DNA of 63,997 bases, counting the filler, from Barthelona sp. PAP020 (Eukaryota), in assembly GCA_040182905.1 (NCBI GenBank). It is 25 parts of 25 records of this genome, joined end to end, with 100 filler letters (N's around TTAATTAATTAA, not from the genome) between each part and the next. Parts side by side here need not be neighbours in the genome. Positions count along the whole stretch, not along the records: positions 29,155 to 31,666 come from JARQWU010000824.1; 24 more parts are not named here. The stretch is one strand, 5' to 3'. The notes under the pieces are model-generated. The model ran no database searches and was not told the DNA's origin. It saw only the letters and a program-made list of their open reading frames with translations. A program made the position numbers and the translations under genes. Positions 13,325-48,193 of the stretch are shown here, piece after piece. Within the stretch, counting starts at the first letter, position 1. Each line of letters opens with the position of its first letter.

Positions 13325-13540
13325 CATTTCAAACAGCCAGGATTCAAATTCAAGGCTTTCCCAACTACTCATTTCAATAACACACCGTATATAAAAGCTT
13401 TCGTATACCTTTTCTTGTACCTATCGTGAAATTCTGAATCTGTTGACCAAAACAGCAAAGATACCATGGAGTAATTTCCCCAACCCCAGTTAGTAAATAT
13501 AAATTAAAGCCTTTAATTTTACCCTTTCGTCAAACGTGAA
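13325..13540 (-). repeat. Pol III-downstream cassettes A (13431-13540) and B (13325-13430)
   Basis: A matches 29160-29273 and B matches 31567-31646; both begin TTCAC at the tRNA-proximal end. Confidence 0.85.
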
Positions 13541-13545
13541 CTTGA

Positions 13546-13560
13546 GAGACTCGATCCTCA
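13546..13560 (-). promoter_or_regulatory. Downstream B-box-like motif TGAGGATCGAGTCTC
   Basis: Starts 23 nt after the first terminator T of tRNA-Ile; same motif and spacing at tRNA-Pro and SRP RNA. Confidence 0.7.
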
Positions 13561-13583
13561 CCCTTTATTTGGAGAATATAAAA

Positions 13584-13657
13584 TGGTACCACTGGGGCTT
13601 GAACCCAGGACCTTCGGTTTATTAGACCGAAACACTAACCAACTGTGCTATGGTACC
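13584..13657 (-). tRNA. tRNA-Ile (AAT)
   Basis: Cloverleaf GGTACCA..TGGTACC-A, anticodon arm TCGGT-CT-AAT-AA-ACCGA, T-arm GGTTCAAGCC; TTTT terminator directly after. Confidence 0.95.
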
Positions 13658-13768
13658 CTTCAGCAAAATGAAGTCTTTTTAAAAAATAAAAACATTGTGC
13701 AAATACAAGTATTCTTCTGAATAATTAATTTTAATAAATTTAAGATAAGCAAAATAATCATTCTTCTT

Positions 13769-13848: not shown

Positions 13849-14226
13849 AACGTAGTTGATGAAAAAAATTTAAAATTTACAATTTCTATAGTTTGCACCC
13901 ATTATTAGTTCTTAATTCCACCAATTCTCCTATTCCATTTTTATTCACTTCTACATACTACTTCTTGAACAATAAAAATAAAACTGAATATTTACCCGAT
14001 TTAACAAAAACCACTATTTTCAAGGTAAACAAACATTTTACATATGCACACACACTCTTTCTTTCTCTCTCTCTCTCTCTCCCTCTCTTTCTATTTATTT
14101 ATAAATTTACAATTTCTTGTGTAAGCCTTGACACAAACTTTCAGTTTAGATCACCAAACCTAATTGCTCGTTCATTCCAAATTTGCCTTCTCCTATCGCA
14201 AAGGAAACATACAATAATATATGTCA

Positions 14227-18622: not shown

Positions 18623-21038
18623 AATTCCTACCCATTTTGTTATAGATACTAGGTTTGAGAATACCAACACCATTGAAACAGGATGGACAATGATACTTCT
18701 CAGGGATTTCTAACCAATTCATAAAGTTAAGAAAAACTTTATCCAAGTGAGGACAAATGTCGGTTGCTACTGGAGAATTTCTTAAGAAGAAATGAAATTT
18801 TGGATAAATATATCTTTTAAACATTACAAAAGCACCATGACGTGAAGTGTTTTGCATTAAAAAGTTAACATACTTCTCAAACTCAGCAGTGAGTCTATTT
18901 CTTGAAAAGTCTCGTATTCCAAGAGGAATTCCAAGAACTTCATCAAATTGATGTACTTGTTTACATTTGGTTGTATTTAACTCTAAATTGACATGAGAGA
19001 GAACAACTTGAGATAAATGAAAGACTTTTCTTTTAACAAATTCAGAACTTTTTGGAATAGCAATATGAATATCATCCAAGTATGCATAAATTTCAGCATC
19101 TGGTATTTGTTGTTGTATCTTTCGTAAACAAGGATCAATTCCAAGAGAGAATAATAATGGTGATAAAACACTACCTTGAGCAACGCCACTTGTCATGTTC
19201 AATGATAAGTTATCACATTGAGCTGAGATTCCACCATTGTAGAGAAATTTGAAATACTTAGAGTATTGGTGAAAAACAGGATCATTTGTGATACACTTAG
19301 CTATGTTGATTGAATTGAAGGCATTTTTACAGTCAAGTGAGTAAACATTATGTGTTGGGAAAAGCAAAGATATTTTGTGAGCGATTGCTGAACATCCATT
19401 TCTGATACCAATTCCATATTGATATGGTTGAAGATTTGGTGTCAGTTTCTCAGCTATTGTTTTGAATATGTGTTTCTCAACAACTTTCAAGAATGTATTA
19501 CCAATCAAAATTGGTCTGATTCTTTTCTTATCCTTTTTCAGTGGAATAAGTTTAGCTATTTTCAAATGTTTGCTACACTTACCTGAGAGGATATCATTGA
19601 AGATTTCAGTGACCAATGTTGATGTTAATTTGGAATCATATGCAGCACGTAACAATTCGATATTCCATCCAAAGATATCTGTTGAATATGAATTCTTTAT
19701 TGAGTTGAGTATTGATATGATTTGATTGGGATTAACTTTGGGACATTCTAACTCTGTGAGATCTTCAAGAGGGTTTTCAACACCAGTAGGAAATAGACGT
19801 TCCATTTCTCTTTTTATTACACTGTGATTTGTTTCAATTCCACCTGATCGGATTAAATTAGCAGCTGTTGAGTATCGACCTCTTGCTATTAGAGATTTAA
19901 GATCTTTTTGATGAAATTGTCTTTTGTTAGTTGATTCCTGTGTTGTAGAGTTTTGTATTGGTAATTTAAGTCGGTTGACTGTATCTTGATTTGAATCATT
20001 GTTGTGAAGATATAATGAAGGAAGACTCAATAAAGTGTTTGGACCAAATAGAAATGCTTCAGCAACTCTCAATTGCCAAAGTGACAATCCAAGTTCAGAT
20101 GTTGGAAGAGTTCGTTTTGTTCCTGTTTTTGGTACATGAGGTACATCTAAATCTGACCATTGAGAATTTGATATACTCAAACAATTATTATGTATTACAC
20201 ATTTATCATTGATCAAAATGCTACATAATTGTTTACATACTTTACAACGCTTTAATTGAGATGAATCTTCTTGAACAGTTTCATCTGATTCATTTTGAGT
20301 AGAATTAGTTGTTATTGCTCCACCAATTGAACCATAAACTCGTAACTTAACATATCTTAGTTTTGCTCGATTGAATGCTTTTGTCAATATATTATGGAGG
20401 TCCGTTTCGTTATCAAGTACAGCATAATCTGCTTCTTTGATACCATTTCGATGTTCATAATATATTTCCTTTTTAAATACATACTTTGGAACTATTGAAG
20501 TGTATGTCTCAATTTGATTTCGTAAATCAATAATGGAAATATTTAACGGAACCATGAATTTTATACATTTTGCAGGAGTTGCAAGTGGTATTATAATTGG
20601 ATGAATATCACCTGGATTTGCTTTTAATCTTAATTCAATTTCAACAGTTTCAACATCTGGATCTTCTATGATTTCATCTTCAGTAATTTCGGATGAAAAT
20701 TCAAGTGTTGAATCAGAATCTTCAATTAATAATGGTGTAGAAATAGTCTCTTCATCATATAAAGATGAATTTAATGTAGAATTTGATTCTTCAGTTGATA
20801 TAGGCGATCTTTTATCAATAACATCAAAACATGAATTTTGGCGGGTACGACAATCTTGTCTAAAAATTGTGTTTTCTTCAACTACAATTCTATCTGAGTC
20901 ATGAAAAACCTTTTTGTTAATGCTTGGAATAAAAGTAGTATTTTCAGTTTTTCTTTCATCATCATCTGAATAACTAGTATCAGAATCATCATTATTGTTT
21001 TTAACATGCACGCTGAATACATTAGCATAGGGCGGCAT
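18623..21038 (-). mobile_element. Non-LTR retrotransposon ORF (CRE-like reverse transcriptase), 3' truncated by contig end
   Basis: RT motifs LIPLKK..IRPILIG, QYGIG, SLDCKNAFNSI, GVAQGSVLSPLLF, YAYLDD. Upstream acidic region, PB1-like domain and CxxC..H..C finger. Second copy at 62504-63743. Confidence 0.9.
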
Positions 21039-21046
21039 ATTTGGTT

Positions 21047-21088
21047 ACTAATAAGAAACTAAGGCTAATAAGAAACTAATAAGAAACT
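21047..21088 (-). repeat. Three copies of AGTTTCTTATT(AG) just upstream of the retrotransposon ATG
   Basis: CTAATAAGAAACT occurs three times on the + strand. Confidence 0.8.
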
Positions 21089-21263
21089 TTATTTTGCTTG
21101 GACTTTTGTCCGGTTTAGTTGGCAGAGTGCCATGACAGCACTCTTGTGACCATCAATTGAAGGNNNNNNNNNNNNNNNNNNNNNNNNNNNNNNNNNNNNN
21201 NNNNNNNTTAATTAATTAANNNNNNNNNNNNNNNNNNNNNNNNNNNNNNNNNNNNNNNNNNNN

Positions 21264-23801: not shown

Positions 23802-24697
23802 NNNNNNNNNNNNNNNNNNNNNNNNNNNNNNNNNNNNNNNNNNNNTTAATTAATTAANNNNNNNNNNNNNNNNNNNNNNNNNNNNNNNNNNNNNNNNNNN
23901 NGGAATATACCCCAACTGAAGAAAATAAAAATGAACAAGCCAAGCTTCTCACAAACACTTTGCACAGTGTGACTCAAAGTTTTGATTAAATAGTGCGTTC
24001 TTTGTAAATCTTATGTTTTTTTTTGTTTGTTTGTTTTTCTTTTTAAACCGTACGTCTTTCAATTCAGGCAAATCAATAATTTGATTTGAAATTTCTTGAA
24101 TTATATTGGTAGAACTACGATACAACAAAATTCATTTGCAGAGTAACTGCAAATGAATATGGAAGTCATTTTATCAAATGCTCGAACAAATGCCAACAGT
24201 AATCATCTATCATTTTATTTTGCCAATCAAAACTACTTTTTGAAGAGATTTTGATTTTGCACTTTGCAATGCTAATTTTCTTGAATTTCATTCTTCAATT
24301 CGGTCAACACAAACATTTTAATTGTTGTTAACTTATAAATGAATGTTGTTGCAATTTATTATGATTAATAACTTGAAACAATTGTGAAGAAAATGTGGTT
24401 AATAATAAAATCATCATTTACAATGTTTACTCAACATCCAGCAAAAACTGACAATTTCACTCACGAAATAATTGTTCCATTATTAACAAATGGTAATATT
24501 TACATGAAAAACTAAAAGCTACAACCATTGAACTATGTTTTTGCATAATTAAATTGGTTAAATTGATTATCATTTTGGGTTGTCAACATTCACAAAATAT
24601 ATCAAAAAGCAAACAAAACACATTTAAAATAAACTTTTGTCAGTTTATATTTGGTTCGACAATTTTTGTTGTGTTTTGAGGTTTATTGATTGTTGAT

Positions 24698-25906
24698 ATG
24701 TCTGCTAAATCAAGTGGTGAATTGGTGGAGAAAACTATTCGTGGAATATTTCCTCTCAAAATTGATGAAATTAGTGTTGGCGAAATTGGAGAATTGCTAT
24801 CTGAATATATATTTGATTGTGAATACTCACTAGATGGAAAACGTATTGTAGTTGGTAGTTATCAAGTTGCTTTTGTAATTGATGCGAAAACTGGAAGACT
24901 GGATCGCACTTTGAACGATCACACAGACAATGTTTATAGTGTTGCGTTTTCACCAGATGGGCAAAAATTGGCAACATGCTCGCAAGATAAATCAATTATC
25001 ATATATAATCTTCCAGATTTCTCCATTTTACGTAGATTTAGTGACATTAATATTATTTGTGGAATTTGTTTTTCTTACTGTTCAAATTATCTGTACTCTG
25101 GTAATAATTATGGAGATATTATGAAATGGGATATTAATAGTGGCAATGTTGTCTTGGAAGAAACAATTCATTCTCGTTGGATTTATGAAGTAAAACTATC
25201 GTCTGATGGTCAATATCTTTTAACTGGTAGTGGGGATAATACTGTCGCGTTGGTTAATCCTGACGATTTGTCTGTTATTCGTGCATTTAGTCATGATGGA
25301 CATGTTAGAACCATTGATTTCCATCCAACTGAAAGAATGATCGCTGTTGGTGACCAATCGAACAAAGCCAAACTTTGGGACATGGATGATGGATCACTTA
25401 TTCATACATTTGATATGGGTGGTGAAGTTTGGTCTGTTCATTTCTTTTCACCCAGTGTCTTACTTATTATGTCTGGTGATGGGTATATTACGTCTTATAA
25501 TTTGGATAGGTTTCAGGAGATTCAAAAAGTTCGTTGTGGTTGCAGCATACCCTATTTTTCATTTGCTATATCGCCTGACAGGAAACAATTGACGTGTGGA
25601 AAATGTGAAGGGGATGTCATTAAGATACATTCAATTGTGCATGAATACGATGCTTCACATCAGTTAGAACTCATCGAATTATCGAAGGATGGTGGTCATG
25701 TCTTATACAATATTATTGATATGAATATGGAAACTCAAAGGATAAGGCAATTGATAAGTGCCGGTATTTGTATGAATCAAGAAGAATACAATTTGATTGT
25801 TAACTTATGCTGGGATTTGGTTGACCTCAACAGAGATAATGGTGGTAACATGTACTCATTTGTGAATGAACAAAGTGATAATGATAATGATAATGATGAT
25901 GATTAA
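24698..25906 (+). CDS. WD40 repeat protein with family-specific C-terminal domain
   Basis: HTDNVYSVAFSPDGQKLATCSQDKSIIIY-type repeats; conserved C-terminal IRQLISAG..CWDLV..NGGNM. Confidence 0.9.
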   Translation: MSAKSSGELVEKTIRGIFPLKIDEISVGEIGELLSEYIFDCEYSLDGKRIVVGSYQVAFVIDAKTGRLDRTLNDHTDNVYSVAFSPDGQKLATCSQDKSIIIYNLPDFSILRRFSDINIICGICFSYCSNYLYSGNNYGDIMKWDINSGNVVLEETIHSRWIYEVKLSSDGQYLLTGSGDNTVALVNPDDLSVIRAFSHDGHVRTIDFHPTERMIAVGDQSNKAKLWDMDDGSLIHTFDMGGEVWSVHFFSPSVLLIMSGDGYITSYNLDRFQEIQKVRCGCSIPYFSFAISPDRKQLTCGKCEGDVIKIHSIVHEYDASHQLELIELSKDGGHVLYNIIDMNMETQRIRQLISAGICMNQEEYNLIVNLCWDLVDLNRDNGGNMYSFVNEQSDNDNDNDDD

Positions 25907-26528
25907 TTAATTAACTGGTACAATTGTTCAAAGCATTATTTTGGGATACGTGACCTATTTTCGGGTCCAAACCATTAGTTCTTTTATTTGAGTTGGATAC
26001 TGTTTTTTTCTTGTTTTTCTATTAGATTCAAATCCCAGGTTAGATTGTTAAGTAATGGCTGGGGGAAAGAGAAGTGGATTTTTGGATTCTTCAGCTTGGC
26101 CATGTAGCCGGAAGGTTTTTGGTGATTTTTTTGTGTAAATTTGCTATTTTTGTGTTTTTTTTTTGTTTTGAAAGTGGTTTTACCCATTGCATTGTGAAAC
26201 AAAAATGTTTTCACAGAAATCAAGCAACAACACACTGAACTAACAAATGAAAATTGTTATGTTACCAAGTAAATAACTAAGATGAGATTTAGAGGGGGAT
26301 GATTAGTGTTCTGGAAAACTTATTTTGTTCAAGACTCCTCCCTCGTTTTTTCTTTTCTTTCTGTTAAAATTTTGATACCTGTGTTGAGTTAAGTGACAAT
26401 TTGATGAGGAAAACAATTTACGATATGTNNNNNNNNNNNNNNNNNNNNNNNNNNNNNNNNNNNNNNNNNNNNTTAATTAATTAANNNNNNNNNNNNNNNN
26501 NNNNNNNNNNNNNNNNNNNNNNNNNNNN

Positions 26529-28199
26529 GAAGATAATGGTCGACCAAAGAAGATTTATCATGCAGCGCTTGAAGGTAATCTTGAGGTTGTCAAGCAGTGT
26601 ATCAAAGCTGGCGTTGATGTGAACAAACAGGGTAAGGAAGGAAGGACAACGTTGTATGGAGCTTCTTTTAATGGGCATACAGAAGTTGTTGAGTTTTTGT
26701 TGGATTTTGGCGCTGATGTTAATTTGTGTATGAATGGGGGATTTTCTTCATTATATGTTAGTTGTCAAAATGGTCATCTTGATATTGCTAAAATGCTCTT
26801 GGATCATGGAGCTGATGGTAATTTGTGTCCTAATGATGGTTGTTCTCCATTATATGTCAGTTGTTACAATGGTCATCTTGATGTTGCCAGAATGCTCTTG
26901 GATCATGGGGCTGATGTTAATTTGTGTAGGAATGATGGTGCTTCTCCACTGTACATCAGCTGTGAAAAAGGTCATCTTGATGTTACTAAAATTCTCTTGG
27001 ATCATGGAGCTGATATTAATTTGTGCAATCACAATGGTACTTCTCCATTGTACATAAGTTGTCAAAATGGTCATCTTGATGTTGTCAAAATACTCTTGGA
27101 ATATGGAGCTGATGTTAATTTGAGTATGAATGAGGGATATTCTCCATTGTACATCAGTTGTGAAAAAGGTCATGTTGATGTTGCCAAAATGCTCTTGGAT
27201 CATGGAGCTGATGTTAATTTGTGTTCTAATGGTGTTTCTCCATTGTTTATTTGTTGTGCAAAAGGTCATCTTGATGTTGCCAAAATGCTCTTGGACCATG
27301 GAGCTGATGTTAATTTCTGTATGAATGATGGGGTTTCTTCATTGTTTATTTGTTGTGCAAAAGGTCATCTTGATGTTGCCAAAATGCTCTTAGATCATGG
27401 GGCTGATGTTAATTTCTGTATGAATAATGGTGCTTCTCCATTATATGTCAGTTGCTACAATGGTCATCTTGATGTTGTTAAAATGCTCTTGGACCATGGC
27501 GTTGATGCTAATGTGTGTATGAAGGATGGTTTTTCTCCATTATTTGTCAGTTGTGAACAAGGTTATCTTGATGTTGTGAAAATTCTCTTGGATCATGGGG
27601 CTGATATTAATTTGTGTCCTAATATTAGTACTTCTCCATTATATGTCAGTTGTCAAAATAACCATCTTGATGTTACTAAAATTCTCTTGGATCATGGGGC
27701 TGATATTAATTTGTGTAGGAATGATGGTGCTTCTCCATTGTACATCAGTTGTCAACAAGGTCATCTTGATGTTGCCAGAATGCTTTTGGATCATGAAGCT
27801 GATGTTAATTTGTGTATTAAGGATGGTACTTCTCCATTATATGTCAGTTGTTACAGTGGTCATCTTGATGTTGTCAAAATGCTCTTGGATTATGGGGCTG
27901 ATGTTAATTTGTGCAATCACAATGGTGCTTCTCCATTGTACATTAGTTGTGAAAAATGTTATCTTGATGTTGTCAAAATGCTCTTGGATTATGGGGCTGA
28001 TATTAATTTGTGCAATCACAATGGTACTTCTGCATTGTACATCAGTTGTCAATTTGGTCACCTTGACATTGTTAAACTTCTATTAGATCACAGAGCCGAT
28101 ATAAATCTCAAATTTCAACAAAAATGGACACCAATGGATATTGCCACAGACGAAGGTCATTCCAAAATTGTACAAATTCTCCAGCCCTTCTACAATTGA
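26529..28199 (+). CDS. Ankyrin-repeat protein (~16 repeats), 5' truncated
   Basis: Tandem 99-bp units encoding GxSPLYISCxxGHLDVAKMLLDHGADVN; same QPFYN end and 3' flank as 6647-7909. Confidence 0.93.
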   Translation, partial: EDNGRPKKIYHAALEGNLEVVKQCIKAGVDVNKQGKEGRTTLYGASFNGHTEVVEFLLDFGADVNLCMNGGFSSLYVSCQNGHLDIAKMLLDHGADGNLCPNDGCSPLYVSCYNGHLDVARMLLDHGADVNLCRNDGASPLYISCEKGHLDVTKILLDHGADINLCNHNGTSPLYISCQNGHLDVVKILLEYGADVNLSMNEGYSPLYISCEKGHVDVAKMLLDHGADVNLCSNGVSPLFICCAKGHLDVAKMLLDHGADVNFCMNDGVSSLFICCAKGHLDVAKMLLDHGADVNFCMNNGASPLYVSCYNGHLDVVKMLLDHGVDANVCMKDGFSPLFVSCEQGYLDVVKILLDHGADINLCPNISTSPLYVSCQNNHLDVTKILLDHGADINLCRNDGASPLYISCQQGHLDVARMLLDHEADVNLCIKDGTSPLYVSCYSGHLDVVKMLLDYGADVNLCNHNGASPLYISCEKCYLDVVKMLLDYGADINLCNHNGTSALYISCQFGHLDIVKLLLDHRADINLKFQQKWTPMDIATDEGHSKIVQILQPFYN

Positions 28200-28899: not shown

Positions 28900-29053
28900 T
28901 TTCAGTTCCTTCCTGGGGTTTTGACTGAAATTTGCTGGAATGAGTGTTCTATGTTTACTTATTTCCAAGCCAAGAAGCACTGTGCGTATGAGTGAATAAG
29001 AAAGAATAGTGTTTATTTGGTTAAAGGCTTTCGAGGCCCGATTGATCTGTTGA
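28900..29053 (+). repeat. Dispersed repeat (copy 2)
   Basis: 28961-29053 matches 13769-13848 and 37401-37498; 28900-28960 resembles the reverse complement of 13150-13222. Confidence 0.8.
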
Positions 29054-29159
29054 ANNNNNNNNNNNNNNNNNNNNNNNNNNNNNNNNNNNNNNNNNNNNTT
29101 AATTAATTAANNNNNNNNNNNNNNNNNNNNNNNNNNNNNNNNNNNNNNNNNNNNCTCAA

Positions 29160-29273
29160 AGAATTCTGAATCGGTTGACCAAAACAGCAAAGATACCATG
29201 GAGTAATTTCCCCAACCCCAGTTAGTAAATATAAATTAAAGCCTTTAATTTTGTCCCTTTCGTCTAAAGTGAA
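29160..29273 (-). repeat. Pol III-downstream cassette A (copy 2)
   Basis: Nearly identical to 13431-13540; begins TTCAC at the tRNA-proximal end. Confidence 0.88.
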
Positions 29274-29285
29274 ATGTTGTTTATT

Positions 29286-29300
29286 GAGACTCGATCCTCA
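29286..29300 (-). promoter_or_regulatory. Downstream B-box-like motif TGAGGATCGAGTCTC
   Basis: Starts 23 nt after the first T of the tRNA-Pro terminator. Confidence 0.7.
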
Positions 29301-29324
29301 GGATTCGCCGTTTCATTCAAAAAT

Positions 29325-29396
29325 GGTCGCCGCCGGGAATCGAACCCGGGACCTCTCGCACCCTAAGCGAGTATTATACCGCTAAACTACGGCGAC
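29325..29396 (-). tRNA. tRNA-Pro (AGG)
   Basis: GTCGCCG/CGGCGAC acceptor stem, anticodon arm CTCGC-TT-AGG-GT-GCGAG, T-arm GGTTCGATTCC, TTTTT terminator. Confidence 0.95.
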
Positions 29397-29512: not shown

Positions 29513-30622
29513 TTATGACTCACATAATTGTAAAAAATTTAAAATTTTTACTGGCAAATAAGAAGAATTTGATTGAAATAAATTATTTGTTAAATATTCA
29601 TCATATACTTCTATTTTTAAATTATTAAGTCTTTTTTTTTTTTTAATATTTTTTTGATAACTAAAAATTAAAACAATACCTTCTGGTCCATAACTTTCTT
29701 CAAAAAAGAAATTATCCATTTTTGAATGAATAATTAAGTTTTGTGAATCATCATTAATAGATATTAAATTGGTGTCTTCAATAAATCGTGGTAACAAAAA
29801 TATAACAAAGGGCAAAACTCTTTCATCAATCATTTTGATCGATTGGGTGATTTTTGAATAGAATTTTTCTGGTTGGTTACACAGTAGGTCTCGACCTTCT
29901 TTGTTGTAAAAGTTAAAACAGCAGCTTTTGCTAAAATTTTTGGGAATAAGCTTTTCCAATAGCTGGTTTCGAAAGGAATCACACTGAAGATAAGGAGGAT
30001 GTAGAAAAGAATTGCTTATGTTATTTGTGCACTCAGAAAGAATATAATGAACCAATCCTACTTCAAGTAAACTTAAATGAATTTGATTCCACTGGTTAAA
30101 TATGCGTTCGTCAATTATGTCTTGGGAACATTGAATTAGTCTCTTTAAAGTATCATTGAAATTATCAATTATATGGTCAATTAGATCATTAAAATCATTT
30201 TCAGTTTCAGATGTAAGGTATTTTTGAATTTCGGGTAGTAAAAAAAGTTCTTTCTGATGATCAATGCAGAACCTTAAGGTGAAAAGCAAGGTCTTTCTTC
30301 GGACTAACCCTTGTAAAATAATAGTAACATGTCTATTGCACCATTCTTCTCGATACGAAGAAGCAAATCCACTAAATGGATCATAAACCAATTCTAATAC
30401 AAGATCTAAAAGAAATTTCTTGATTGAAAAATCTCTTTTGTTGAAAGAATTAAAATTGCAGGCATTTTGCCCTTCAGTTTCTTTAAATTGTTTGAAATAC
30501 CAATGAATGACTAATAAATTTTTCCATTCTCCCAAATCAATTGGAATATCAAAGCAATTGAAGATTTCTTTTGGTATATGAATATATTCAATAAATTTTT
30601 CCACGTTGAAAACTTCATTCAT
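29513..30622 (-). CDS. Hypothetical protein (369 aa)
   Basis: Long ORF in very AT-rich DNA; no recognised motif. Confidence 0.55.
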   Translation of the reverse strand: MNEVFNVEKFIEYIHIPKEIFNCFDIPIDLGEWKNLLVIHWYFKQFKETEGQNACNFNSFNKRDFSIKKFLLDLVLELVYDPFSGFASSYREEWCNRHVTIILQGLVRRKTLLFTLRFCIDHQKELFLLPEIQKYLTSETENDFNDLIDHIIDNFNDTLKRLIQCSQDIIDERIFNQWNQIHLSLLEVGLVHYILSECTNNISNSFLHPPYLQCDSFRNQLLEKLIPKNFSKSCCFNFYNKEGRDLLCNQPEKFYSKITQSIKMIDERVLPFVIFLLPRFIEDTNLISINDDSQNLIIHSKMDNFFFEESYGPEGIVLIFSYQKNIKKKKRLNNLKIEVYDEYLTNNLFQSNSSYLPVKILNFLQLCES

Positions 30623-30945
30623 TGAGTAAATTACATTTTATGAAAAGTTCGCAATTTGTGAAGTTTGAGCTGAAAATTTGAAAACAGAAAAAATTCTCTT
30701 TATGGCTTTTGTTTTGAATTCTTAACAAAGATAAAAAGGACTGATTGAAGTTTTGAAGATCTCAAAAGAAATTTGAAACAAAAAATTTTTTTGTTTCTTT
30801 CAAGTAATAATATTTTGTTGTTCAAAACTGTCTGAAAAGATAAATATTGTGAAAAAAATGTGAAACTTCACTCCGAAGTTTTTTTCCATATATTTTTTTT
30901 AGAACTCTATTTTGAAATAATGTGGTAAATTTTCTTTTTAGTTTT

Positions 30946-31243
30946 GGCTTGGTTCCTGGGTGTTGCATATGTGACACCTGTAACCGAAAGGGGGATTGTC
31001 CAAGCTAGGAATATGTCAGATTCCGGTGGGCAGAAATGCAAACGCATGTAGATGACTAGTCTTCTGAGTCGAACGGACCATCTTACTCTCTTAATGTAGG
31101 TCTAGGGAGTTTGAAAGTGCTAAGTGTTGGAACTGGGCAAGGCGAGTTTGATCGAGCAGTCCTAACAGCATCCGAATTGATTCTCAGGAGATGGCTGGTT
31201 TGAGTGAGAGTTTGCAGGGAGTTCGCTGATCTAGGGATAGACC
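30946..31243 (+). ncRNA. Signal recognition particle RNA (7SL)
   Basis: ~298 nt. Alu domain (GGCTTGG/CCAAGCT, GGGTGTTGCA/TGTGACACCT, TGTAA motif). Helix 5 pairings (TGCAAAC/GTTTGCA, CTTCTGAG/CTCAGGAG, CGGTGGGC/GTTCGCTG). Helix 8 GGGC-AAGG-CGA..TCG-AGCA-GTCC. TTTT terminator at 31244. Confidence 0.88.
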
Positions 31244-31266
31244 TTTTCAAGGTCCGTTATGAGGGC

Positions 31267-31281
31267 GGAGGATCGAGTCTC
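31267..31281 (+). promoter_or_regulatory. Downstream B-box-like motif GGAGGATCGAGTCTC
   Basis: Starts 23 nt after the first T (31244) of the SRP RNA terminator. Confidence 0.7.
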
Positions 31282-31290
31282 TCAAAAGTG

Positions 31291-31646
31291 TTCATAGCAA
31301 AGCGGACGGATTCATGATGCAAAACAGAAAATTCACGTTAGGTACAAGAAAAGGTATACGAAAGCTTCACTCGACATTCATGATGCAAAAGTGTTCGTAG
31401 CAAAGCGGACGGATTCATGATGCAAAACAGTTTCACGTTAGGTACAAGAAAAGGTATACGAAAGCTTTTATATACGGTGTGTTATTGAAATGGATAGTTG
31501 GGAAAGCCTTTTCACACGACAATAATAAAAAATGTTTATAAAGATCTTTATTGTTCTCGGTTAGATTTCACGTTAGGTACAAGAAAAGGTATACGAAAGC
31601 TTTTATATACGGTGTGTTATTGAAATGAGTAGTTGGGAAAGCCTTG
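31291..31646 (+). repeat. Polarised stack of 10 short cassettes (D,C,B,E,C,D,C,B,E,B), each starting TTCA/TTCG
   Basis: Starts at 31291, 31311, 31332, 31366, 31377, 31394, 31414, 31432, 31511 and 31567. B copies are 34, 79 and >=80 nt with a shared proximal end. Confidence 0.85.
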
Positions 31647-31746
31647 AATTTGAATCCTGGCTGTTTNNNNNNNNNNNNNNNNNNNNNNNNNNNNNNNNNN
31701 NNNNNNNNNNTTAATTAATTAANNNNNNNNNNNNNNNNNNNNNNNN

Positions 31747-32791
31747 NNNNNNNNNNNNNNNNNNNNTAACAGCTGTTGATGATTTGGTGTTGTTGATGAG
31801 AAAGAGTTTTGAGCTTTCTCATTCAATTAATATATCTAGAGATCATCTTGTATCTCAAATTGATTTTCACTCAGTTTTTAACATTGTCAATGTTTGTGCA
31901 ACATTATTTGAAGAATTGACTCACAAACTTGCAAATTTTGTTAAACTTCCTGTTGATCAGTTGATTCAAGAATATTTTTCAGCAACAAATGATGAATTGG
32001 TGGCTCTTAAAAATATTCTCACCAAGCCAAGAAATGAAATTATTGAAGGCTTGGCTGATTTTACTCAAATTGTGCAAAAATTCCAAAATGAAGTTAGTTC
32101 TTCTCTTTCTTTATTGTCTAATATGGGTTCCAAAGATTTTTCATCTGAAAATTCCGATGAATCTGAAGTTATTCGTGATTTAGCCGATACTTTTGGAGAA
32201 AAAGTACTACCAATTGTAAAACAAAGAGCTTCAGAATTAGTTCAAAGAGCAGATGCTCCTGAAGCTTGGGTAAATATGCCCATTGCTGATTTAATTCAGC
32301 ATTTTAATGATTTGGCCAATGCTGTCACTCAAAACTCTAAATTAACTGGTGGAAATGTTTCTCTAACAATGGATCCCGAAGAATTCGCTTCAATAAATGA
32401 ACAAGGACACTTATTAAAGTTTGTTTTTGAAGGAGGTACTCATTTACACATGCCACCTGTTTTAGAGGATGTCATTCGTGATTTAATATTCAATTCCAGA
32501 AAATATTCACCCATTGGTACCACAATTACTGCACATATTTTTAATACAAAGAATAGTTTGCACATATCTATCTCTGATTTCGGTTATGGTTTTGATAGTG
32601 AAAAGGAATTGTACATGTGTGTTCAATATGGAGTAAGAAAGATGAAAAATTCTTCTGTTCGTAATTTAGGCTTAGGATTTGGTTTGACAAAGGCCGTTTT
32701 AATTACTGAATTTTTCAAAGGTACTTTTAAGATCTCAACTGCTCCTAAAATGGGGACAAGAATTAAAATCAAATTACCAAGACCCGAATAA
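31747..32791 (+). CDS. Sensor histidine kinase (HATPase_c), C-terminal fragment
   Basis: N box (VIRDLIFNSRKY), G1 (ISDFGYG), G2 (GLGFGLT) and terminal GTRIKIKLP. Confidence 0.85.
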
Positions 32792-34377: not shown

Positions 34378-35552
34378 GGCTTTTGGAAAGAAAGGGATAT
34401 GTGGAAAGGGTTCAAGAATTGACTAATGAAAACGGTCAGTTGAAAGCTAAAGAGGAGAAATGGATGAATGAAAAGCAAGAATTGGTCAATCAAGCAGACA
34501 ATTTTATGGAAGAAAAAAGAAACTGGATGAATAAAAACCAAGAATTAACAAATCAAGTCGATCATTTGACAAACCAATTGAATGACCTTATGAACAACAA
34601 TACCAGAGAACCATTCAATGAAAATAGAAAGCAAATTGTTCTTGCAGTCGAAAGATTTGAAGAAAGGCCTGTGTTTAGTGAAGAGTTTCCTGATATTCAG
34701 ATTTTTGCCCTTGATTACAGCCCTGATGGACGCTTTTTTGCGGTTGCTGGACATAATAGTAAATTACTCAGAGTCTACAACGCTGAAACACATGAAATTG
34801 TGCATGAAGGGGAGTATATGAACGCTAGGGGTCTCAATTTTAATCCAGACTCCAAGCTGTTGGCTGTTGGTGGTTATGCTTCAGCAATTCATATCATTGA
34901 GGTTGATACTTGGAGAACAGTAAGAGTGATTAGGGGCATGTCAATTGATGTAAAACGTATGTGGTTTTCACCAGATGGCAAATTGCTTTCTTTTGGTATG
35001 CGAAATGGTTACATTGGTATATACACGGTTGAAGGACAGAAGTTGCATGAATCTCGAGCTCATGAAAAAAATGTTTACTCTGTACGCATCAGCTCCGATA
35101 TGAAGTACTTTGCCTCTGTCAGCGATGATGGATGTTCAAAGTTGTTTTCATTGGAGACATATGAAGAGCTTTACAGGTGGAGTCATGATGGAAATGAGGT
35201 TAACTCAGGCAACTTCTCACCCGATGGTGCCTATTGGGCGACAGGTGATGACAGTGGTACAATCAGGATATTTCATGTTGAATCTAGAGAGTTGGTGCGA
35301 AAGTACAAGGTTCATGATTGTTGGATATACTCAATCATCTTCTCCCAAGATGGTTTATTGATCTATTCTGGTTCTTGGAAAAAATCATTTGCTGTGATTC
35401 GAAGAGAAACAGGTCAAGTGTTGCAGAAAGTGAAAGTACCTTTTTATATTCGTGCTATAGCCCTCAACCATGATAGAACTCGTTTGTTGTGCAGTGGATG
35501 GAATGGTGAGAATAATCTCCCAATCCAAGAATTCATTGCTTCAAATCTGTAA
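34378..35552 (+). CDS. Coiled-coil plus WD40 protein, 5' truncated
   Basis: N-terminal heptad repeats followed by ~7 WD blades (FSPDGAYWATGDDSGTIRIF). Confidence 0.85.
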
Positions 35553-37400
35553 AACTCCACATTGCATTTTGCACTAGTAATCATTATTACATGTTTCACC
35601 TCGCTTCTCAGGTTCTGCAACTGGTAAATTTAAAACACATCTTCATTTCATCATTTTATTCATTTTGTCAGGAAAATTTTTCCTCCCATTTTTTTCATAT
35701 TTGGCAAAAGCCAATTTATTCTAGTTTTCAACTTTCACTTTCGAAAGATAGATATTGTTGTTTCATTTTAAATCAATAAGGGTATTTAAAGCCTTCAACA
35801 AAAAGAACATGACTCTTTCTTATTCACTTTTTTTTCACTGGGTTTCTTTGCAAATAAAATTCTTTCCATTTTTGAAGTTTAAATTTTGAAATTTTGAAAT
35901 TCACAGAACAATAATAATAATTGCTTATAAAGACCTCTTTTGTTCAGGGTTAAAAGTTAGGAGTATTTGCAACTAGGTCTTTTTGTGTGGAGGGTTCAGA
36001 ACACTCCTAAAGATAAAAAAGAAATGCTTCCGGTTTAATGAGGGTATTTAAAGAAAAGAGTAAAATTTTCCTGCCCTTGATTCACTTTAAATTTCAACAA
36101 TAAATTTTGAAGAGTTTATGTCCAACTCTTAGGTGTGTGTGTGGGGGGGGGGGGGATTCTAGTTGAGATGTTAGCAGCATAATCTTTCTTTCCCTCTTTA
36201 AAACAAAAATTTTTTCATTCCAAACTTTTGAAACTTTTGAAAGGTGGCAAGAAAACCTATTCTTTCTTGATGATTTGGCAAATATCTTTTCCTCATTTAT
36301 GGAGTTCTGGTTGTAAACTGATTCATTTATTGACATACTAGTATTGAATGTTGAAAATTTCACTGTGCCAGTTTAAAATGTCTCCACTTATGTTCTCTTT
36401 TTGACACTTTTATATTCGTTGTTGGCTTAATTTATTTACTTGTATCCCTAATCTTATAATTCTTACGATTCCGTGTTATTGCGAGCTTTTCAATTTTGAT
36501 ACCCATCAATATCAAAAATTGCAAAAAGAAACCTTGAACACATTTATATTGTCTTTTGCATGAATTTCACAAAGAGTGGATTATTTTATAAAGGACATTC
36601 AGTTCACAAACCAGAATCAGAGCAAGAACTGACAAACACAAACTAGCCAACTTCTCATCCGATAATCTTCACAAAAGCTTTGATGATCATTTTCAGTTTT
36701 GAAGATGTGAATGTTGTTGAAAATTAATTTGGCAACAACAAAAATTTCACCGAAAGAGGACGCAAAGGAAGAATTAACCCAAAATACTCCTGCATATAAA
36801 GCTAATAATCCCATAAGAAAGAAAATTTTAAATCTGGAAAAGAGGAGATCAAAACAATAAGAATTTTATTTTCTAAAGGACCGCNNNNNNNNNNNNNNNN
36901 NNNNNNNNNNNNNNNNNNNNNNNNNNNNTTAATTAATTAANNNNNNNNNNNNNNNNNNNNNNNNNNNNNNNNNNNNNNNNNNNNGTTTTTGTCTCTTCTT
37001 TAAGATGGCCTGGTGCATGTCATATTTCTTTTGAAAGAACATTCTTCAATTGTTATATTGGTAATGGTTTACCATATTCTCCAGTTAGTGTTGTTCCAAG
37101 TTTACCAAAATTCAACATGGAATATGATTATCTCAACAAAAGCTTAAAATTGTATGATGAAGAAGAAGATCCTCATGATGTTGTAAAACCTGAAGACAAA
37201 AATAAGGACGAAGAAAAGAATGATCACGATGATAATGATGAAGAGGAGAATGATGATGATGAAGAGGATTAATTGTGTAACTTGTATCTTGGAGCAAAAT
37301 AAAAATTATTTGTAAAATGAACGTTTTTTCTTTTATCAAACCATTTAGAAACAAAACATTTGTTGAAATTCTTGCTTAAAAGAAATAAATAGAGTACTAA

Positions 37401-37498
37401 TTATTTCCAAACCAAGAAGCACTGTACGTATGAGTGAATAAAAAAAAGAACAGTGTTTATTTGGTTAATGGCTTTCGAGGCCCGATTGATCTGTTGAA
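37401..37498 (+). repeat. Dispersed ~90-bp repeat (copy 3)
   Basis: Near-identical to 28961-29053. Confidence 0.85.
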
Positions 37499-38259
37499 AA
37501 ACTTTAGATTTTCTAAAGTAAAGTTTGAATTTTTTCCAAAGACACAACCTAGATTCACACAATGTACTTTCAGTCTGGATCTCACACACTGTATTTTTCC
37601 GAAATTCACTAAAATGACCCTTTGGGTTTTTATTCAGTGTAAATAAGTTTATGTCACTACTGGAGCAAAGTATCAGGCCACTTCTATTTTTTTTTGAGAT
37701 TTTGATGTCAATTATTGGAGTCCAGCACAACAAGAACAAAAAATATTGATAATAAATGATGTTGATTTTATTAGTTAAATTGAAGGTCGTCACACTAACA
37801 ACATTGGAGACTCTCATTGAAGAAGTGAAAAAGGTTCTTGCAATGGAAGAAAAAAAGAAGATACATATCGCACAATTGCAAGTTTAATTTGTGAATTTCG
37901 TGGGTGCAAATATGTCAACACCATCATTACATCAACAAATCTGTGAAAATGAATTGGAACAATGTCTTTTGTTAAAAAATTCGAACAAACATTATCATGA
38001 CAAACTTTCAGAATTGTGTGACATTTTGGCAATGTTTAAATCAATAGCGAAAGTTCAATTGGATGCTTCAATTCGAAAAAGGAAATCTCAAGAAAGAATT
38101 AAATTATATTGTGAATAGTTCTCCACAAACCAGTCAATCAATCATCGAATTTCATTTTGACAACAACAAAATTAAAATACTGCCTGATTTGAGGGATAAA
38201 TATTGATATCCAAAGAGAAATGGGAAATTTGGAGGTCCTTTTTTTTTTTTTTGCCGATA

Positions 38260-39489
38260 ATGGTTGTTGACACTGTAGTTGAGGAAACTGATCCATATAT
38301 AAAGTATAACATGGATCAAGTTGTTGTTCCGGATGGGTTTGATGTGGATGGATTTGAAGATAATGGTCGACCAAAGAAGATCTATTTTGCAGCATGTGAT
38401 GGTAACCTTGAGGTTGTCAAGCAGTGTATCAAAGCTGGCGTTGATGTGAACAAACAGGGCAAGGAAGGAAGGACATCGCTTTGGGGAGCTGCTTTTTGTG
38501 GGCATATAGAAGTTGTTGAGTTTTTGTTGGATTTTGGCGCTGATGTTCATTTGAGTATGAATGATGGATTTACTCCATTATATGTTTGTTGTCAAAATGG
38601 TCATCTTGATGTTGCCAGAATGCTCTTGGATCATGGCGCTGATATTAATTTGAGTATGAATGATGGATATTCTCCATTGTACATCAGTTGTCAAAATGAT
38701 CATCTTGATGTTGCCAGAATGCACTTGGATCATGGGGTTGATGTTAATCTGTGTAATAATAATGATGCTTCTCCATTGTACATCAGTTGTCAAAATGGTC
38801 ATTTTGATGTTGCCAAACTGCTCTTGGATCATAGAGCTGATGTTAATCTGTGTAATAATAATGGTGCTTCTTCATTGTTCATTAGTTGTCAAAATGGTCA
38901 TCTTGATGTTGCGAGAATGCTCTTAGATCATGGAGCTGATGTTAATTTGTGTCCTAATGATGGTGTTTCTCCATTGTATGTTAGTTGTCTAAATGGGCAT
39001 CTTGATGTTGCCAGAATGCTCTTGGATCATGGAGCTGATGTTAATTTGTGTGACAATGATGGGTGGTCTCCATTGTACATCAGTTGTGAACTTGGTCATC
39101 TTAATGTTGCCAAAATGCTTTTGGATCATGGGGCTGATGTTAATTTGTGTAAGAATAATGGTGTTTCTCCATTGTACATCAGTTGCCAAAAAGGTCATCT
39201 TGATGTGGCCAGAATGCTCTTGGATCATGGAGCTGATGTTCATTTGTGTAGGGACGGTGGATTTTCTCCATTGTATGTTAGTTGCCATAAAGGTCATCTT
39301 GATATTACCAAGATGCTTCTAGATTGTCCCGAAATAAACTTATATGGTGAAGATATGCTGTTTTTTTTCAACAAATTGTATACAAGTGATGAACAATGGA
39401 AAAAGAACAAATGCAGTATTTTGAGCTGTCCCAATTTAAAACAACAATTGAAGAGTGGTGAGCCTGTTGATTTGAAATTTGAGCATTTG
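38260..39489 (+). CDS. Ankyrin-repeat protein of the same family, lacking the kinase domain, with an unrelated C-terminal segment
   Basis: Shares the DPYIKY.MD.VVVPDGFDVDGFE leader and ankyrin repeats with 6647-7909; switches to non-ankyrin sequence near 39325. Confidence 0.85.
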
Positions 39490-39589
39490 NNNNNNNNNNN
39501 NNNNNNNNNNNNNNNNNNNNNNNNNNNNNNNNNTTAATTAATTAANNNNNNNNNNNNNNNNNNNNNNNNNNNNNNNNNNNNNNNNNNNN

Positions 39590-42190: not shown

Positions 42191-42510
42191 GCAATTGACA
42201 GATAGTTCAACCAAAGTTGTGAAGCTCTATGACATCAGTATTGCCAACTCAATCGAGTATGCTGAAAGACGCAAAAAGTGCAAGTTCGGTAATACTGTTG
42301 TTCCTCTGGTGTTTTTAGAGACTGGTCTTTTCTCAAGTACAGTCTCTACTTTCTTCAACAAGTGTCTGCAAACAGTCTCTCCATACGTCAAGCACACGCT
42401 CTGGCCTCGCATCAGGTACAGGCTCTCTGGACTTCTCGCAGAGTTCTGGGCCCTGCTACAGGCAACAAAGTAACAATGTGTAGCATTTGTTTTGTAAATA
42501 GGTAAAATAG
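42191..42510 (+). mobile_element. 3' end of an RLE-type non-LTR retrotransposon (endonuclease C-terminus, short 3' UTR, TAG tail)
   Basis: LYDISIAN..AERRKKCKF..VPLVFLETG resembles the restriction-like endonuclease D..E..K.KY..P..ETxG. Near-identical inverted copy at 63766-63997. Confidence 0.75.
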
Positions 42511-42538
42511 TGAATTTGTTAAAAAGGAAAGCATTGGA

Positions 42539-44684
42539 TCAATTGTAGAAGGGCCACAAAAGCTCTACAATTTGGGCATGACCGTTGGTTCGGGCAATAT
42601 CTATTGGTGTCAATTCTTGTTCAGTTTTGAGGTTGACATTGGCTTTATGATACAAGAGCATTTTAGCAACATCAAAATGCCCATTTTGACAACTAATGAA
42701 CAATGGAGAAGTGCCATCATCTCTACACAAATTAATATCCTCCCCAAGATCCAAGAGCATTTTAGCGATATTAACATGACCAAATTCACAACTCACAAAT
42801 AATGGCGACTCACCATTATTCATACATAATTTGACATTGGCACCATGATCCAAGAGCATTTCGGCAACATCAAGATGACCAAATTGACAACTAATATACA
42901 ATGGAGAAGTACCATTCCTATTACACAAATTAACATCAGCCCCATGATTCAAGAGCATTTTGGCAACATCAAGATGACCATTTTCACAACTACCATACAA
43001 TGGAGAAGCACCACGTTTGTCACATTGATTGAAATCTACCCCATGGTCCTCTAAGAGCATTTTGGCAACATCAAAATGACCTTTAAAACAACTAACGAAC
43101 AATGAAGAAAAACCATATTTAGTACATTGATTGGCATCAACTCCATGATCCTTTAAGAGCATTTTGACAATATCAAGATGACCTTCTAGACAACAAATAT
43201 ACAATGGAGAGCGACCATCTTCATCGCATTGATTAACATTAACCCCATGATCCAACAACATCTTTGCAACATCAAGATGACCTTTTTGACAACTAATATA
43301 CAACGGTGAAACCCCATTGATCTTGCATTTGTTGACATCAGCTCCATTGTCCAAAAGCATTCTAACCACATTCTTATGCCCATTTTCACAGGCAGTAAAC
43401 AATGAAGAAGCACCAGTATTCTTACAAAAATTGATGTCAACCTTAAAATCTAACAAGACCTCAACAATATCACTGTGCTCACAAGAAGAAGCCTCCCAAA
43501 GAACGCTTTCACCCTCATTTCCAAACTTTATCCATTTTTTAACAACTTCCAATTTTCCATCACGCACACTATGATATATCGTATCTGTATTGCAATATTC
43601 TGAAAAATTATCTGGAACAAGAACCTCATACAATCTATGTTTCACATAAGAATCACAAATAGCCGACTCAAGTTTTTTCTTTTCTTCCTCGTTATTTTCA
43701 TCCAAATTATGTTTCTTAAAATAATCACAAACAAGGAAAGAAATACATTTTTTCAAGTCAACAATCAACCCATCGAGATACTCAACTATTTCTGAAAACA
43801 ATGGTCTTTTATCGGGATCACGATTAAAACACTGAGACACAAAATTATATCCAATGACCGACTCCAATTCTTCATGTTTAAAAGGCAATTCACCTTTATT
43901 TAATTTTAGAGGAATTCTAAAATCAGGAATTCCTTCAAAAGGCTGAAACATTGTAATCACTTCAAAGTAAGTTGTTGCAAAAGCCCAACAATCAATACCA
44001 GGATGAGCAAAAATATCATTATTTACCAACTCAGGAGGCATATAACAAATGGTTCCTGTTCTAGACATCCTACTGTTTCTTTCAAAACAACGAACAAGAC
44101 CAAAATCGCACAGAACAGTAGTTCCATCATTTTTGATCAAAACATTCTTTGGATTGACATCTCGATGTATCACACCTTTACTATGACAAAACTCAAGTGC
44201 AGAAGCCAGTTGGAACATACTGATTAATCTCTCAATAACAGTCATTTTATGCATTCTTTTACTCAGTGTGTGTGGGCAATATTCCATCACAATGCCCCAT
44301 TTAATTTGATCTGCGACCTCCTTAGATGTCATACCATACACTTTGCAAATAAATGGATGAGAAAATGTAACAGCAATACATTCACCTTTCACTTCTTTTT
44401 TAGTTGAATCACGGGTATACTTTATAGCAACATTGGAGCATTGATATTGACCAAAATAAACTGTGCCATAACCACCCGATCCTAATTCTCTTTCTTCATT
44501 TAACAGTTCATAATCTATAAAAGGAACCTCAATTCCAGAACTGACGAGTTTGTGTTCAAATTCATTCATTTTTTGTTGCAACTCTTCCATCTTTTTCTTA
44601 CGTTCCAAAGGGTCCATTTTCGACATTTCATTCATTTGCAAATTTTGTTTTGAATTGAAAATTTCATCCATATTGAAAATATGC
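42539..44684 (-). CDS. TKL-like protein kinase plus C-terminal ankyrin repeats
   Basis: LGSGGYGTVY, VAIK, HRDVNPKN, DFG and YMPPE motifs, followed by ~10 ankyrin repeats. Confidence 0.92.
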
Positions 44685-44783
44685 NNNNNNNNNNNNNNNN
44701 NNNNNNNNNNNNNNNNNNNNNNNNNNNNTTAATTAATTAANNNNNNNNNNNNNNNNNNNNNNNNNNNNNNNNNNNNNNNNNNN

Positions 44784-47367: not shown

Positions 47368-48193
47368 ACCTTAATTGCTCTTCTCTCTTTTCAAATATTG
47401 TAACGTAAATTTCTTCAACGTTGAATAATAATGCATTGTCAAATATGATTTTTAAGAATCTTTCTCCTAATTTTAAACCATTTGATGTAACTTTAAATGT
47501 GCCAATTTTTAATCGCCTTTTGGGTGGCAAACTTGGTGTAACGTCACTGTAATTTTCATCTTTTTCCTCTTTCTTTAAGTATAAAAAAGCCTTAATACCC
47601 CCATCAGAAATACATATGTATGAAATATTCTCAGATTTACGATTAAACCAATCTTTAAACTCATCATAATCTTCTTTGAATGAGTCGAAGAAAGTATCAT
47701 CTATGTTTATATTTCCAAAGTATTCTTTTTTTACTGCCAGAATCTGGTATTCTTTTAATAGGGGATTTTCTGCAATACACTTTTCTAAAAAAGACTCAAT
47801 TTTAAAGACTTTTTCTGCACATCCTAATAATTCTGCTTTTCGATGAATACCTCTATCTTCTGTAATTAAAAAATCAACTCTATTATTATAAACTTCTTTT
47901 AAAATACTTGTGTCTATATAATCATTTTCGGAAGTATCTGATTGTCGTATTTGCTCTATTAATTTATCATCGGTAGACTCTGTTTGTAAAACATTGTAGC
48001 TTGCAATCTTTATTTTCATCATTTCTACAACAGTTGTGTCTTTGTATGAAGAAATTTCCTTAATAGAAAGAGGATGAACATATTTTTCAAATTTTAATTT
48101 ATCAAGCCAATTAAAGAGTAAACCTATATCTTCATTAATAACTCTATTCGCTTCACGATGAATTATTATGTTTGTATCAATCAGTACTTTCAT
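47368..48193 (-). CDS. Bacterial PIN-domain plus GNAT-like fusion protein, 3' truncated
   Basis: MKVLIDTNIII..D..IL..FLITEDRG (PIN), then FFDSFKEDY..W..K and LKIGTFKV..G..LGERFLK (acetyltransferase). Start overlaps the upstream stop. Confidence 0.82.

What the first reader, a model, noticed from the sequence alone, without database searches (positions are those of the whole stretch)
31244..31281. Same B-box-like motif exactly 23 nt past the terminator of three different Pol III genes
Seen: (T/G)GAGGATCGAGTCTC follows tRNA-Ile (13546-13560), tRNA-Pro (29286-29300) and SRP RNA (31267-31281) in the same orientation. It starts after exactly 23 nt counted from the first terminator T, and the three spacers are unrelated (TTTTATATTCTCCAAATAAAGGG; TTTTTGAATGAAACGGCGAATCC; TTTTCAAGGTCCGTTATGAGGGC). 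Known: GGATCGAGTC resembles the TFIIIC B-box GGTTCGANTCC, and extragenic downstream B-boxes exist (Dictyostelium exB, yeast U6). Inference: a lineage-specific, terminator-phased downstream Pol III element shared across gene classes, or the conserved end of an element that inserts at a fixed distance from terminators.
Basis: partly seen in the sequence, partly recalled or inferred. Interest (0 to 1): 0.85.

Follow-up and report, generated by a model that had tools for sequence, protein, structure and literature searches.

The report
Extra B-box behind Pol III terminators
In a little-known single-celled eukaryote, two tRNA genes and a likely SRP RNA gene are each followed, at the same distance after their stop signal, by an identical 14-base motif and then a patchwork of shared repeats; the motif is likely an extra docking site for a transcription factor, and the repeats likely pile up behind it, as in slime moulds.

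Summary
GAGGATCGAGTCTC occurs exactly 3 times in the window, each time on the gene strand, 24 nt after the first terminator T of tRNA-Ile, tRNA-Pro and a probable SRP RNA gene, on unrelated spacers. Its core GATCGAGTC fits the B-box consensus GWTCRANNC, and it is the SRP gene's only sense-strand B-box. The motif is never repeated inside these arrays. Best reading (0.5): a host external B-box like Dictyostelium exB, spaced against the terminating polymerase, with small repeats accumulating behind it as TRE3/Skipper-2 do. Main rival (0.3): the end of a mobile element inserted with near-base precision. The window's own non-LTR retrotransposon is not the source. Only three loci could be examined: no whole genome was held, no sequencing run was listed, and no relative turned up in the metagenome, genome or viral scans. 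This scan had not noted the sequence on other DNA.

The parts
13584..13657 (-). tRNA-Ile(AAT) gene with internal A-box and B-box (GTTCAAGCC)
13560..13583 (-). T4 terminator and unique spacer, 24 nt from first T to the 14-mer
13546..13559 (-). Motif copy 1, GAGGATCGAGTCTC
13430..13540 (-). Module a (about 110 bp, starts TTCAC, 9-bp-arm palindrome at +30); 95.5% identical over 112 nt to the tRNA-Pro copy
13325..13432 (-). Module b, runs into the contig end; 99% identical over 102 nt to the last SRP copy; a diverged homolog of module a
29325..29396 (-). tRNA-Pro(AGG) gene with internal A-box and B-box (GTTCGATTC)
29300..29323 (-). T5 terminator and unique spacer, 24 nt
29286..29299 (-). Motif copy 2
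29155..29273 (-). Module a, runs into the contig end
30945..31243 (+). Probable SRP RNA gene (Rfam match 30974-31216; ends inferred); no sense-strand GWTCRANNC and no strict A-box inside
31244..31267 (+). T4 terminator and unique spacer, 24 nt
31268..31281 (+). Motif copy 3
31283..31430 (+). Module c twice (31283-31327, 31386-31430; each holds an A-box-like TAGCAAAGCGG) around a 36-bp piece of module b (31332-31367)
31431..31510 (+). Module b, 80-bp copy
31511..31565 (+). Module d (starts TTCAC, 14-bp palindrome at +34); 81% match at 35900-35952 away from any detected Pol III gene
31566..31666 (+). Module b, longest copy at this locus, runs into the contig end

Best explanation
The 14-mer is likely a host-encoded external B-box, predicted to bind TFIIIC, that sits 24 nt after the first terminator T of three Pol III genes, and short repeats likely accumulate just behind it. 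Shown: position, strand, invariance, B-box fit, absence elsewhere in the window, and the repeat patchwork. Inferred: (1) spacers of equal length and unrelated sequence mean selection on distance, so a protein on the box would sit against the front of Pol III paused on the short T4-T5 run. There it would serve as the B-box the SRP gene lacks, and at tRNA genes it would keep TFIIIC on the gene during transcription or help stop the polymerase. (2) The bound factor marks a landing zone: small non-autonomous elements insert 5-12 nt past the box, or downstream flanks are swapped between Pol III loci using the box as the last shared sequence, which would also keep all 14 bases identical.
For: 3 of 3 detected Pol III genes carry it, same strand, same phase; 0 other copies at up to 2 edits. 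Core fits GWTCRANNC; chance for a random 14-mer about 0.002-0.003. It is the only sense-strand B-box match in the SRP region scanned, 30900-31666, like yeast U6 with its downstream B-box (PMC1796607 passage). 0 motif copies at up to 3 mismatches inside the 737 nt of arrays, so it is not the end of the repeated modules. Homology between loci breaks 0-4 nt past the 14-mer and resumes only at module starts. Modules a/b occur 6 times, all in the three arrays, with no other hit below E 4.6 elsewhere in the window. Precedent: external B boxes about 41 bp downstream of 66% of D. discoideum tRNA genes (PMC3159450), with TRE3 inserting downstream of the internal or external box (PMC5911963).
Against: Only 3 loci. 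14 of 14 identical bases is more than TFIIIC needs: the two internal B-boxes differ from each other. Both tRNAs already have good internal B-boxes. GWTCRANNC alone occurs 29 times in the window. TFIIIC was not detected in Giardia, though it was in Trichomonas (PMC3369914), and whether this organism has it is unknown. The tRNA-Ile and tRNA-Pro loci share motif plus module a at about 95%, which fits one copied unit equally well. Two of three copies begin TG, as LTRs do (recalled). No relative carrying the arrangement was found.
Confidence: 0.5

Rival explanations
1. The motif is the terminus (LTR end or terminal inverted repeat) of a young mobile element whose integrase is tethered to terminating Pol III and inserts 23-24 nt after the first T; the modules are its variable subterminal region.
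For: Repeats at 95-99% identity follow within 12 nt at 3 of 3 loci and all three run into contig ends. Sharp 5' boundary with unrelated spacers. Copies 1 and 2 start TG. Skipper-2 lies 8-23 bp downstream of D. discoideum tRNA genes (PMC5006619).
Against: Module order differs between loci from the first module on (a-b; a-other; c-b-c-b-d-b). No second motif in the arrays, as repeated insertion at one distance would leave. No opposite end in the window (0 unlinked copies against 3 linked; weak). The SRP copy starts GG. A random terminus fits the B-box consensus about 0.2-0.3% of the time. No matching autonomous element seen: the window's RT element ends in (TAG)n and lies elsewhere.
Confidence: 0.3
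2. The motif binds a lineage-specific factor other than TFIIIC and acts as a roadblock terminator or replication-fork barrier behind Pol III genes, in the manner of Pol I terminators; fork stalling beyond it would scramble the downstream flank.
For: Geometry: 19-20 nt from the last T; yeast Nsi1 binds 12-20 nt downstream of the T-rich Pol I site and roadblocks (PMC7618708). The T-runs are only 4-5 long, weak in yeast (PMC9278858). Full invariance suits a dedicated factor.
Against: The B-box fit would be a coincidence. A tRNA stem next to T4 already aids termination in yeast. No factor identified; no read-through data.
Confidence: 0.12
3. No present function: a relic spread by gene conversion between Pol III flanks, or an assembly artefact at repeat-ended contigs.
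For: All three arrays lie at contig ends of a fragmented assembly; no reads were available to check.
Against: Mis-joins or neutral conversion would not give three unrelated spacers of one length; the motif lies 131-385 nt inside the contig ends.
Confidence: 0.08

Closest known systems
Dictyostelium discoideum external B box (exB) with TRE3 / Skipper-2 insertions
   Same: B-box-type motif on the 3' flank of tRNA genes at a set distance; repeats inserted further downstream, often in tandem (PMC3159450, PMC5911963, PMC5006619, PMC5391098 passages).
   Different: Core starts 27-28 nt after the tRNA end (exB about 41 bp in one paper, about 100 bp past the internal box in another); GATC rather than GTTC core; 14 invariant bases; also behind a probable SRP gene; repeats are 20-110 bp non-coding modules with no poly(A), not multi-kb APE-RT elements; unrelated lineage. 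The exB logo is a figure and could not be seen.
S. cerevisiae U6 (SNR6) downstream B box
   Same: A Pol III gene without an internal B-box has one beyond its terminator (PMC1796607 passage); fits the SRP locus.
   Different: About 120 nt beyond the terminator, one gene; here 24 nt, shared with tRNA genes that have their own B-box.
Yeast ETC sites (extended B box)
   Same: Solo B-box with conserved extra bases (PMC3395662 passages).
   Different: ETC sites are away from Pol III genes and have a 10-base 3' extension; here the box is tied to terminators.
Pol I roadblock terminator (T-rich site plus Nsi1/Reb1 site)
   Same: T-run followed at a fixed short distance by an invariant site (12-20 nt in yeast, PMC7618708 passage).
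   Different: Pol I and rDNA only; no factor or binding shown here.
Helentron / HINE / DINE-1 non-autonomous elements (for the modules only)
   Same: Variable T-run at the constant end, nearby palindrome, tandem patchwork (PMC4067079 passages).
   Different: No subterminal inverted repeat pair, far end or Rep/Helicase partner shown.

Membership tests
Dictyostelium-type external B box (exB) | Fits the B-box consensus | tested here: met
   GATCGAGTC fits GWTCRANNC; it does not fit the stricter GTTCRANNC used for Dictyostelium
Dictyostelium-type external B box (exB) | Downstream of tRNA genes at a set distance | tested here: met
   2 of 2 tRNA genes; 48 and 49 nt from the internal box; closer to the gene than exB
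Dictyostelium-type external B box (exB) | Present at most tRNA genes of the genome | not testable with these tools
   No genome held, no run listed
Dictyostelium-type external B box (exB) | Bound by TFIIIC | not testable with these tools
   Needs EMSA/ChIP; presence of TFIIIC in this organism unknown
Dictyostelium-type external B box (exB) | Guides downstream insertion of mobile elements | tested here: inconclusive
   Repeats follow at 3 of 3 loci and a/b occur only there; no insertion event or empty site seen
TRE3 / Skipper-2 tRNA-downstream retrotransposons | Coding retroelement (APE-RT, or LTR gag-pol) in the downstream flank | tested here: inconclusive
   None in the 131-385 nt visible; contigs end there
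TRE3 / Skipper-2 tRNA-downstream retrotransposons | Oligo(A) tails at unit ends (TRE3) | tested here: not met
   No A or T tail longer than 4 at module junctions (parse)
TRE3 / Skipper-2 tRNA-downstream retrotransposons | Target-site duplication | not testable with these tools
   Far ends lie beyond the contigs
U6-type downstream B box | Gene lacks an internal sense B-box | tested here: met
   True for SRP only; both tRNAs have one
U6-type downstream B box | Internal A-box to pair with | tested here: inconclusive
   No strict TRGYNNANNNG in the SRP gene; a one-mismatch candidate TGGCTTGGTT at 30945 seen by eye; 5' end unmapped
Helentron/HINE (modules) | Variable T-run at terminus and nearby palindrome | tested here: inconclusive
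   TT to TTTT before CAC; palindrome scores 9.5, 7.0, 7.5 for a, b, d, reached by 18 of 179 TTCAC sites at 7 or more, module copies included
Helentron/HINE (modules) | Paired subTIRs and Rep/Helicase partner | not testable with these tools
   Far ends missing; genome not held
Pol I-type roadblock terminator | T-rich site with an invariant site 12-20 nt downstream | tested here: met
   19-20 nt from last T
Pol I-type roadblock terminator | Bound factor stops the polymerase | not testable with these tools
   Needs 3'-end mapping on mutants

The most novel reading that the evidence does not exclude
Pol III genes of this lineage use a two-part terminator: a short T-run plus a protein bound exactly 24 nt downstream, across gene classes; or a mobile element reads the terminating Pol III and inserts there with single-base precision. 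Either would be a terminator-phased mechanism that my literature searches did not turn up for Pol III.
Probability: 0.3. Interest if true: 0.85.

Novelty: new variant of a known kind. Interest (0 to 1): 0.58.

Why it matters
The role of external B boxes behind tRNA genes is, as far as the passages I read go, unexplained, and insertion downstream of tRNA genes was described for dictyostelids and not for budding yeast (PMC5911963). A second, independent case in a distant protist, extended to SRP RNA and fixed to within one base of the terminator, gives a sharp test: change the spacer length and measure termination, re-initiation and insertion. If the motif is an element end, it would reveal a targeting route through terminating Pol III.

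Tried and rejected
Whole genome: none held. Sequencing runs: none was listed; read laying not used. Module b 24-mer: 0 matches in metagenome contigs and genome contigs. T4 plus 14-mer: 1 viral and 4 prokaryotic loci, 0 of 5 with a tRNA. No match in phages or plasmids. Modules as structured RNAs: 6 folds, z from -0.72 to 0.75; motif regions z 0.39, 0.48, -1.73; rejected. Regular satellite: TRF found none at the SRP locus. tRNA-derived SINE with its own promoter: no A-box upstream of the motif in the spacers and no B-box in the modules; rejected. The window's non-LTR retrotransposon as source: its 3' end is a short UTR plus (TAG)n, with no match to the modules, and neither of 2 visible 3' ends is at a Pol III gene; rejected. 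Shared upstream motif of the three genes: none seen by eye. Decayed fourth motif near 60235(-): z 1.1, not significant. TTCAC as Pol II initiator: not evident upstream of 11 guessed start codons. ESM atlas for the ORF 29516-30619 did not answer; Pfam gave nothing. Ribozyme in the RT 5' UTR: no Rfam support. Earlier findings: none by place, sequence or relatives; three word hits were bacterial or phage and did not bear on this. Siol 2006 and Eichinger 2005 were not held.

Full report
Setting. The window is 25 contigs of about 2.5 kb joined by N44-TTAATTAATTAA-N44 linkers. It is an AT-rich eukaryote read by the standard code. Ribosomal protein S3 has no relative above 40% identity and the Cdc5-like protein finds only itself and distant Myb proteins. 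The only clade hint is a retrotransposon RT whose best named hits are Barthelona sp. PAP020 (40%) and Eukaryota sp. TZLM1-RC (25%) (that the latter is a Skoliomonas is recalled). A barthelonid-like metamonad is therefore likely, not shown. No whole genome is held and no sequencing run was listed, so everything below rests on three loci.

Observation. GAGGATCGAGTCTC occurs exactly 3 times and has no other copy within 2 edits. Each copy is on the gene strand behind tRNA-Ile(AAT), tRNA-Pro(AGG) or a probable SRP RNA gene (40.6 bits, E 9.9e-7, below gathering; absent from the whole-window scan; fold z -2.27). These are all the Pol III genes detected. Distance from the first T is 24, 24, 24; from the last T 20, 19, 20. 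Spacers match at 4, 7 and 4 of 19 positions. Chance is excluded: 8e-5 expected copies, and 0 of 200,000 random T4-anchored triples share 14 in-phase bases.

The motif as a B-box. The core GATCGAGTC fits GWTCRANNC (PMC5499648 passage). That 9-mer pattern is common (29 hits in the window), but a given 14-mer would contain it only 0.2-0.3% of the time. Both tRNAs have their own A- and B-boxes, 48 and 49 nt upstream of the motif core. The SRP region has no sense-strand B-box except the motif, and no strict A-box. The motif regions do not fold notably.

Five, 12 and 9 nt after the motif the three loci enter repeat modules that run 221, 131 and 385 nt to the contig ends. Module a (about 110 bp) follows the motif at both tRNAs (95.5% over 112 nt). 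Module b follows a at tRNA-Ile and occurs three times at SRP (36, 80 and over 100 bp; 99% between loci). a and b are diverged homologs (z 3.7-5.6; 0-1 of 200 shuffles; alignment). A profile built from five a/b copies finds 6 copies, all inside the three arrays; the best hit elsewhere has E 4.6. Modules c and d, in the SRP array, also have single relatives away from detected Pol III genes (60151-60192, 35899-35955). Modules share a constant gene-proximal start, TTCAC (8 in 737 nt, 1.08 expected, copies not independent; none on the other strand), and have variable far ends. a, b and d carry a palindrome around AAAG(n)CTTT 30-34 nt in (post hoc, moderate). They have no RNA structure signal, no poly(A), and are not a regular satellite.

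Which is the unit? The motif is absent from every module junction (0 copies at up to 3 mismatches), so it is not the end of the repeated modules. Between tRNA-Ile and SRP, identity ends 4 nt past the motif; between the tRNAs it ends at the motif and resumes at module a after linkers of 5 and 12 nt. This fits a fixed anchor with a changeable distal flank. It does not exclude one composite element with a variable interior, since far ends and target-site duplications are out of view.

The resident retrotransposon is not the driver. An RT ORF at 18623-21035(-) and 62504-63750(-) (Pfam RVT_1) has its C-terminus at 42222-42470(+) and 63836-63979(-) by tblastn with P0006. Its 3' end is a short UTR plus (TAG)n; one 3' end abuts a 5'-truncated copy, the other an ankyrin-kinase gene. 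Neither resembles the modules or lies at a Pol III gene.

Relatives. None found. Module b: 0 in metagenome and genome collections. Five T4-plus-14-mer hits have no tRNA. These collections are mostly prokaryotic or viral, so this says little about eukaryotic relatives.

Mechanism. I commit to a host external B-box (0.5). Shown: phase, strand, invariance, consensus fit, repeat patchwork. Inferred: TFIIIC binds it; the fixed length reflects contact with Pol III paused on a short T-run; it supplies the B-box SRP lacks; and the bound factor makes the next few bases a landing zone for small elements or for exchange between Pol III flanks. Against: invariance beyond need, redundancy at tRNAs, and TFIIIC was not detected in Giardia though found in Trichomonas (PMC3369914 passages). 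Rivals: precise mobile end (0.3), non-TFIIIC roadblock like the yeast Nsi1 site 12-20 nt past the Pol I T-rich element (0.12), relic or artefact (0.08).

Known systems. D. discoideum has external B boxes about 41 bp downstream of 66% of tRNA genes (PMC3159450; a review gives about 100 bp past the internal box and about 80%, PMC5911963). TRE3 inserts 40-150 bp downstream, guided by either box, and Skipper-2 8-23 bp downstream. Yeast U6 has a B box about 120 nt beyond its terminator. This locus type works like exB plus downstream repeats; membership cannot be claimed without binding and genome-wide data. Ten literature searches listed nothing on such a motif in metamonads; the metamonad genome paper has no 'tRNA' occurrence in its main text. 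I saw search listings and found passages only, for PMC5006619, PMC5391098, PMC3159450, PMC11316075, PMC7618708, PMC1796607, PMC9278858, PMC5499648, PMC3395662, PMC4067079, PMC3369914, PMC5633606 and PMC5911963; no figures or supplements. The exB logo and the primary exB papers were not available and could change the comparison.

Verdict. A real, tightly phased element plus a real downstream repeat patchwork; a new variant of a known kind; interest 0.58, limited by three loci and no functional data.

Noticed in passing
window 18623-21163(-), 62504-63750(-), 42191-42512(+), 63762-63997(-): Pieces of one non-LTR retrotransposon family (RT plus probable restriction-like endonuclease; CRE-like by recalled motifs) with a (TAG)n tail; at 63745-63772 a 3' end is joined head to tail to a 5'-truncated copy. 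Best named relative is from Barthelona (40%).
   Followed up: partly
window 13768-13866, 28957-29054, 37399-37502, 35761-35860: Dispersed repeat 'U' of about 100 bp (4 copies, 71-93%); one lies 110 bp upstream of tRNA-Ile, one 40 bp from a module d relative; it has the same AAAGCCTT core as the modules.
   Followed up: partly
window 12775-13224: MITE-like element with inverted ends of about 117 bp (74%); a fragment of its end at 28902-28960 abuts a U copy.
   Followed up: no
window 31295-31305, 31398-31408, 60165-60192(-): Module c contains a perfect tRNA-type A-box (TAGCAAAGCGG) with no B-box after it; possibly a tRNA-derived fragment.
   Followed up: partly
window 61243-61322(+): Possible box C/D snoRNA (SNORD18 model, E 0.027, below gathering).
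   Followed up: no
window 47368-48741(-): Two adjacent ORFs that look bacterial by eye (PIN-like protein, ATP-binding protein): contaminant contig or lateral transfer.
   Followed up: no
window 31769-32788(+): ORF with a C-terminal HATPase_c domain (Pfam E 6e-9), histidine-kinase-like.
   Followed up: partly
window 6647-7957, 26481-28199, 38200-39537, 42539-44728; 549-1904, 24680-25906, 34378-35552: Expanded ankyrin-repeat (kinase) and WD40-like gene families; duplicated 835-aa genes at 54959-59893.
   Followed up: no
L008, L012, L035, L049, L063, L068, L084, L090, L109, L110: A prokaryotic tRNA-Lys(TTT) recurrently followed by TTTTTGAAACCAG...GGGATCGAATCTTAAGATCAG; a conserved flank of one bacterial group, unrelated to this finding.
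   Followed up: no
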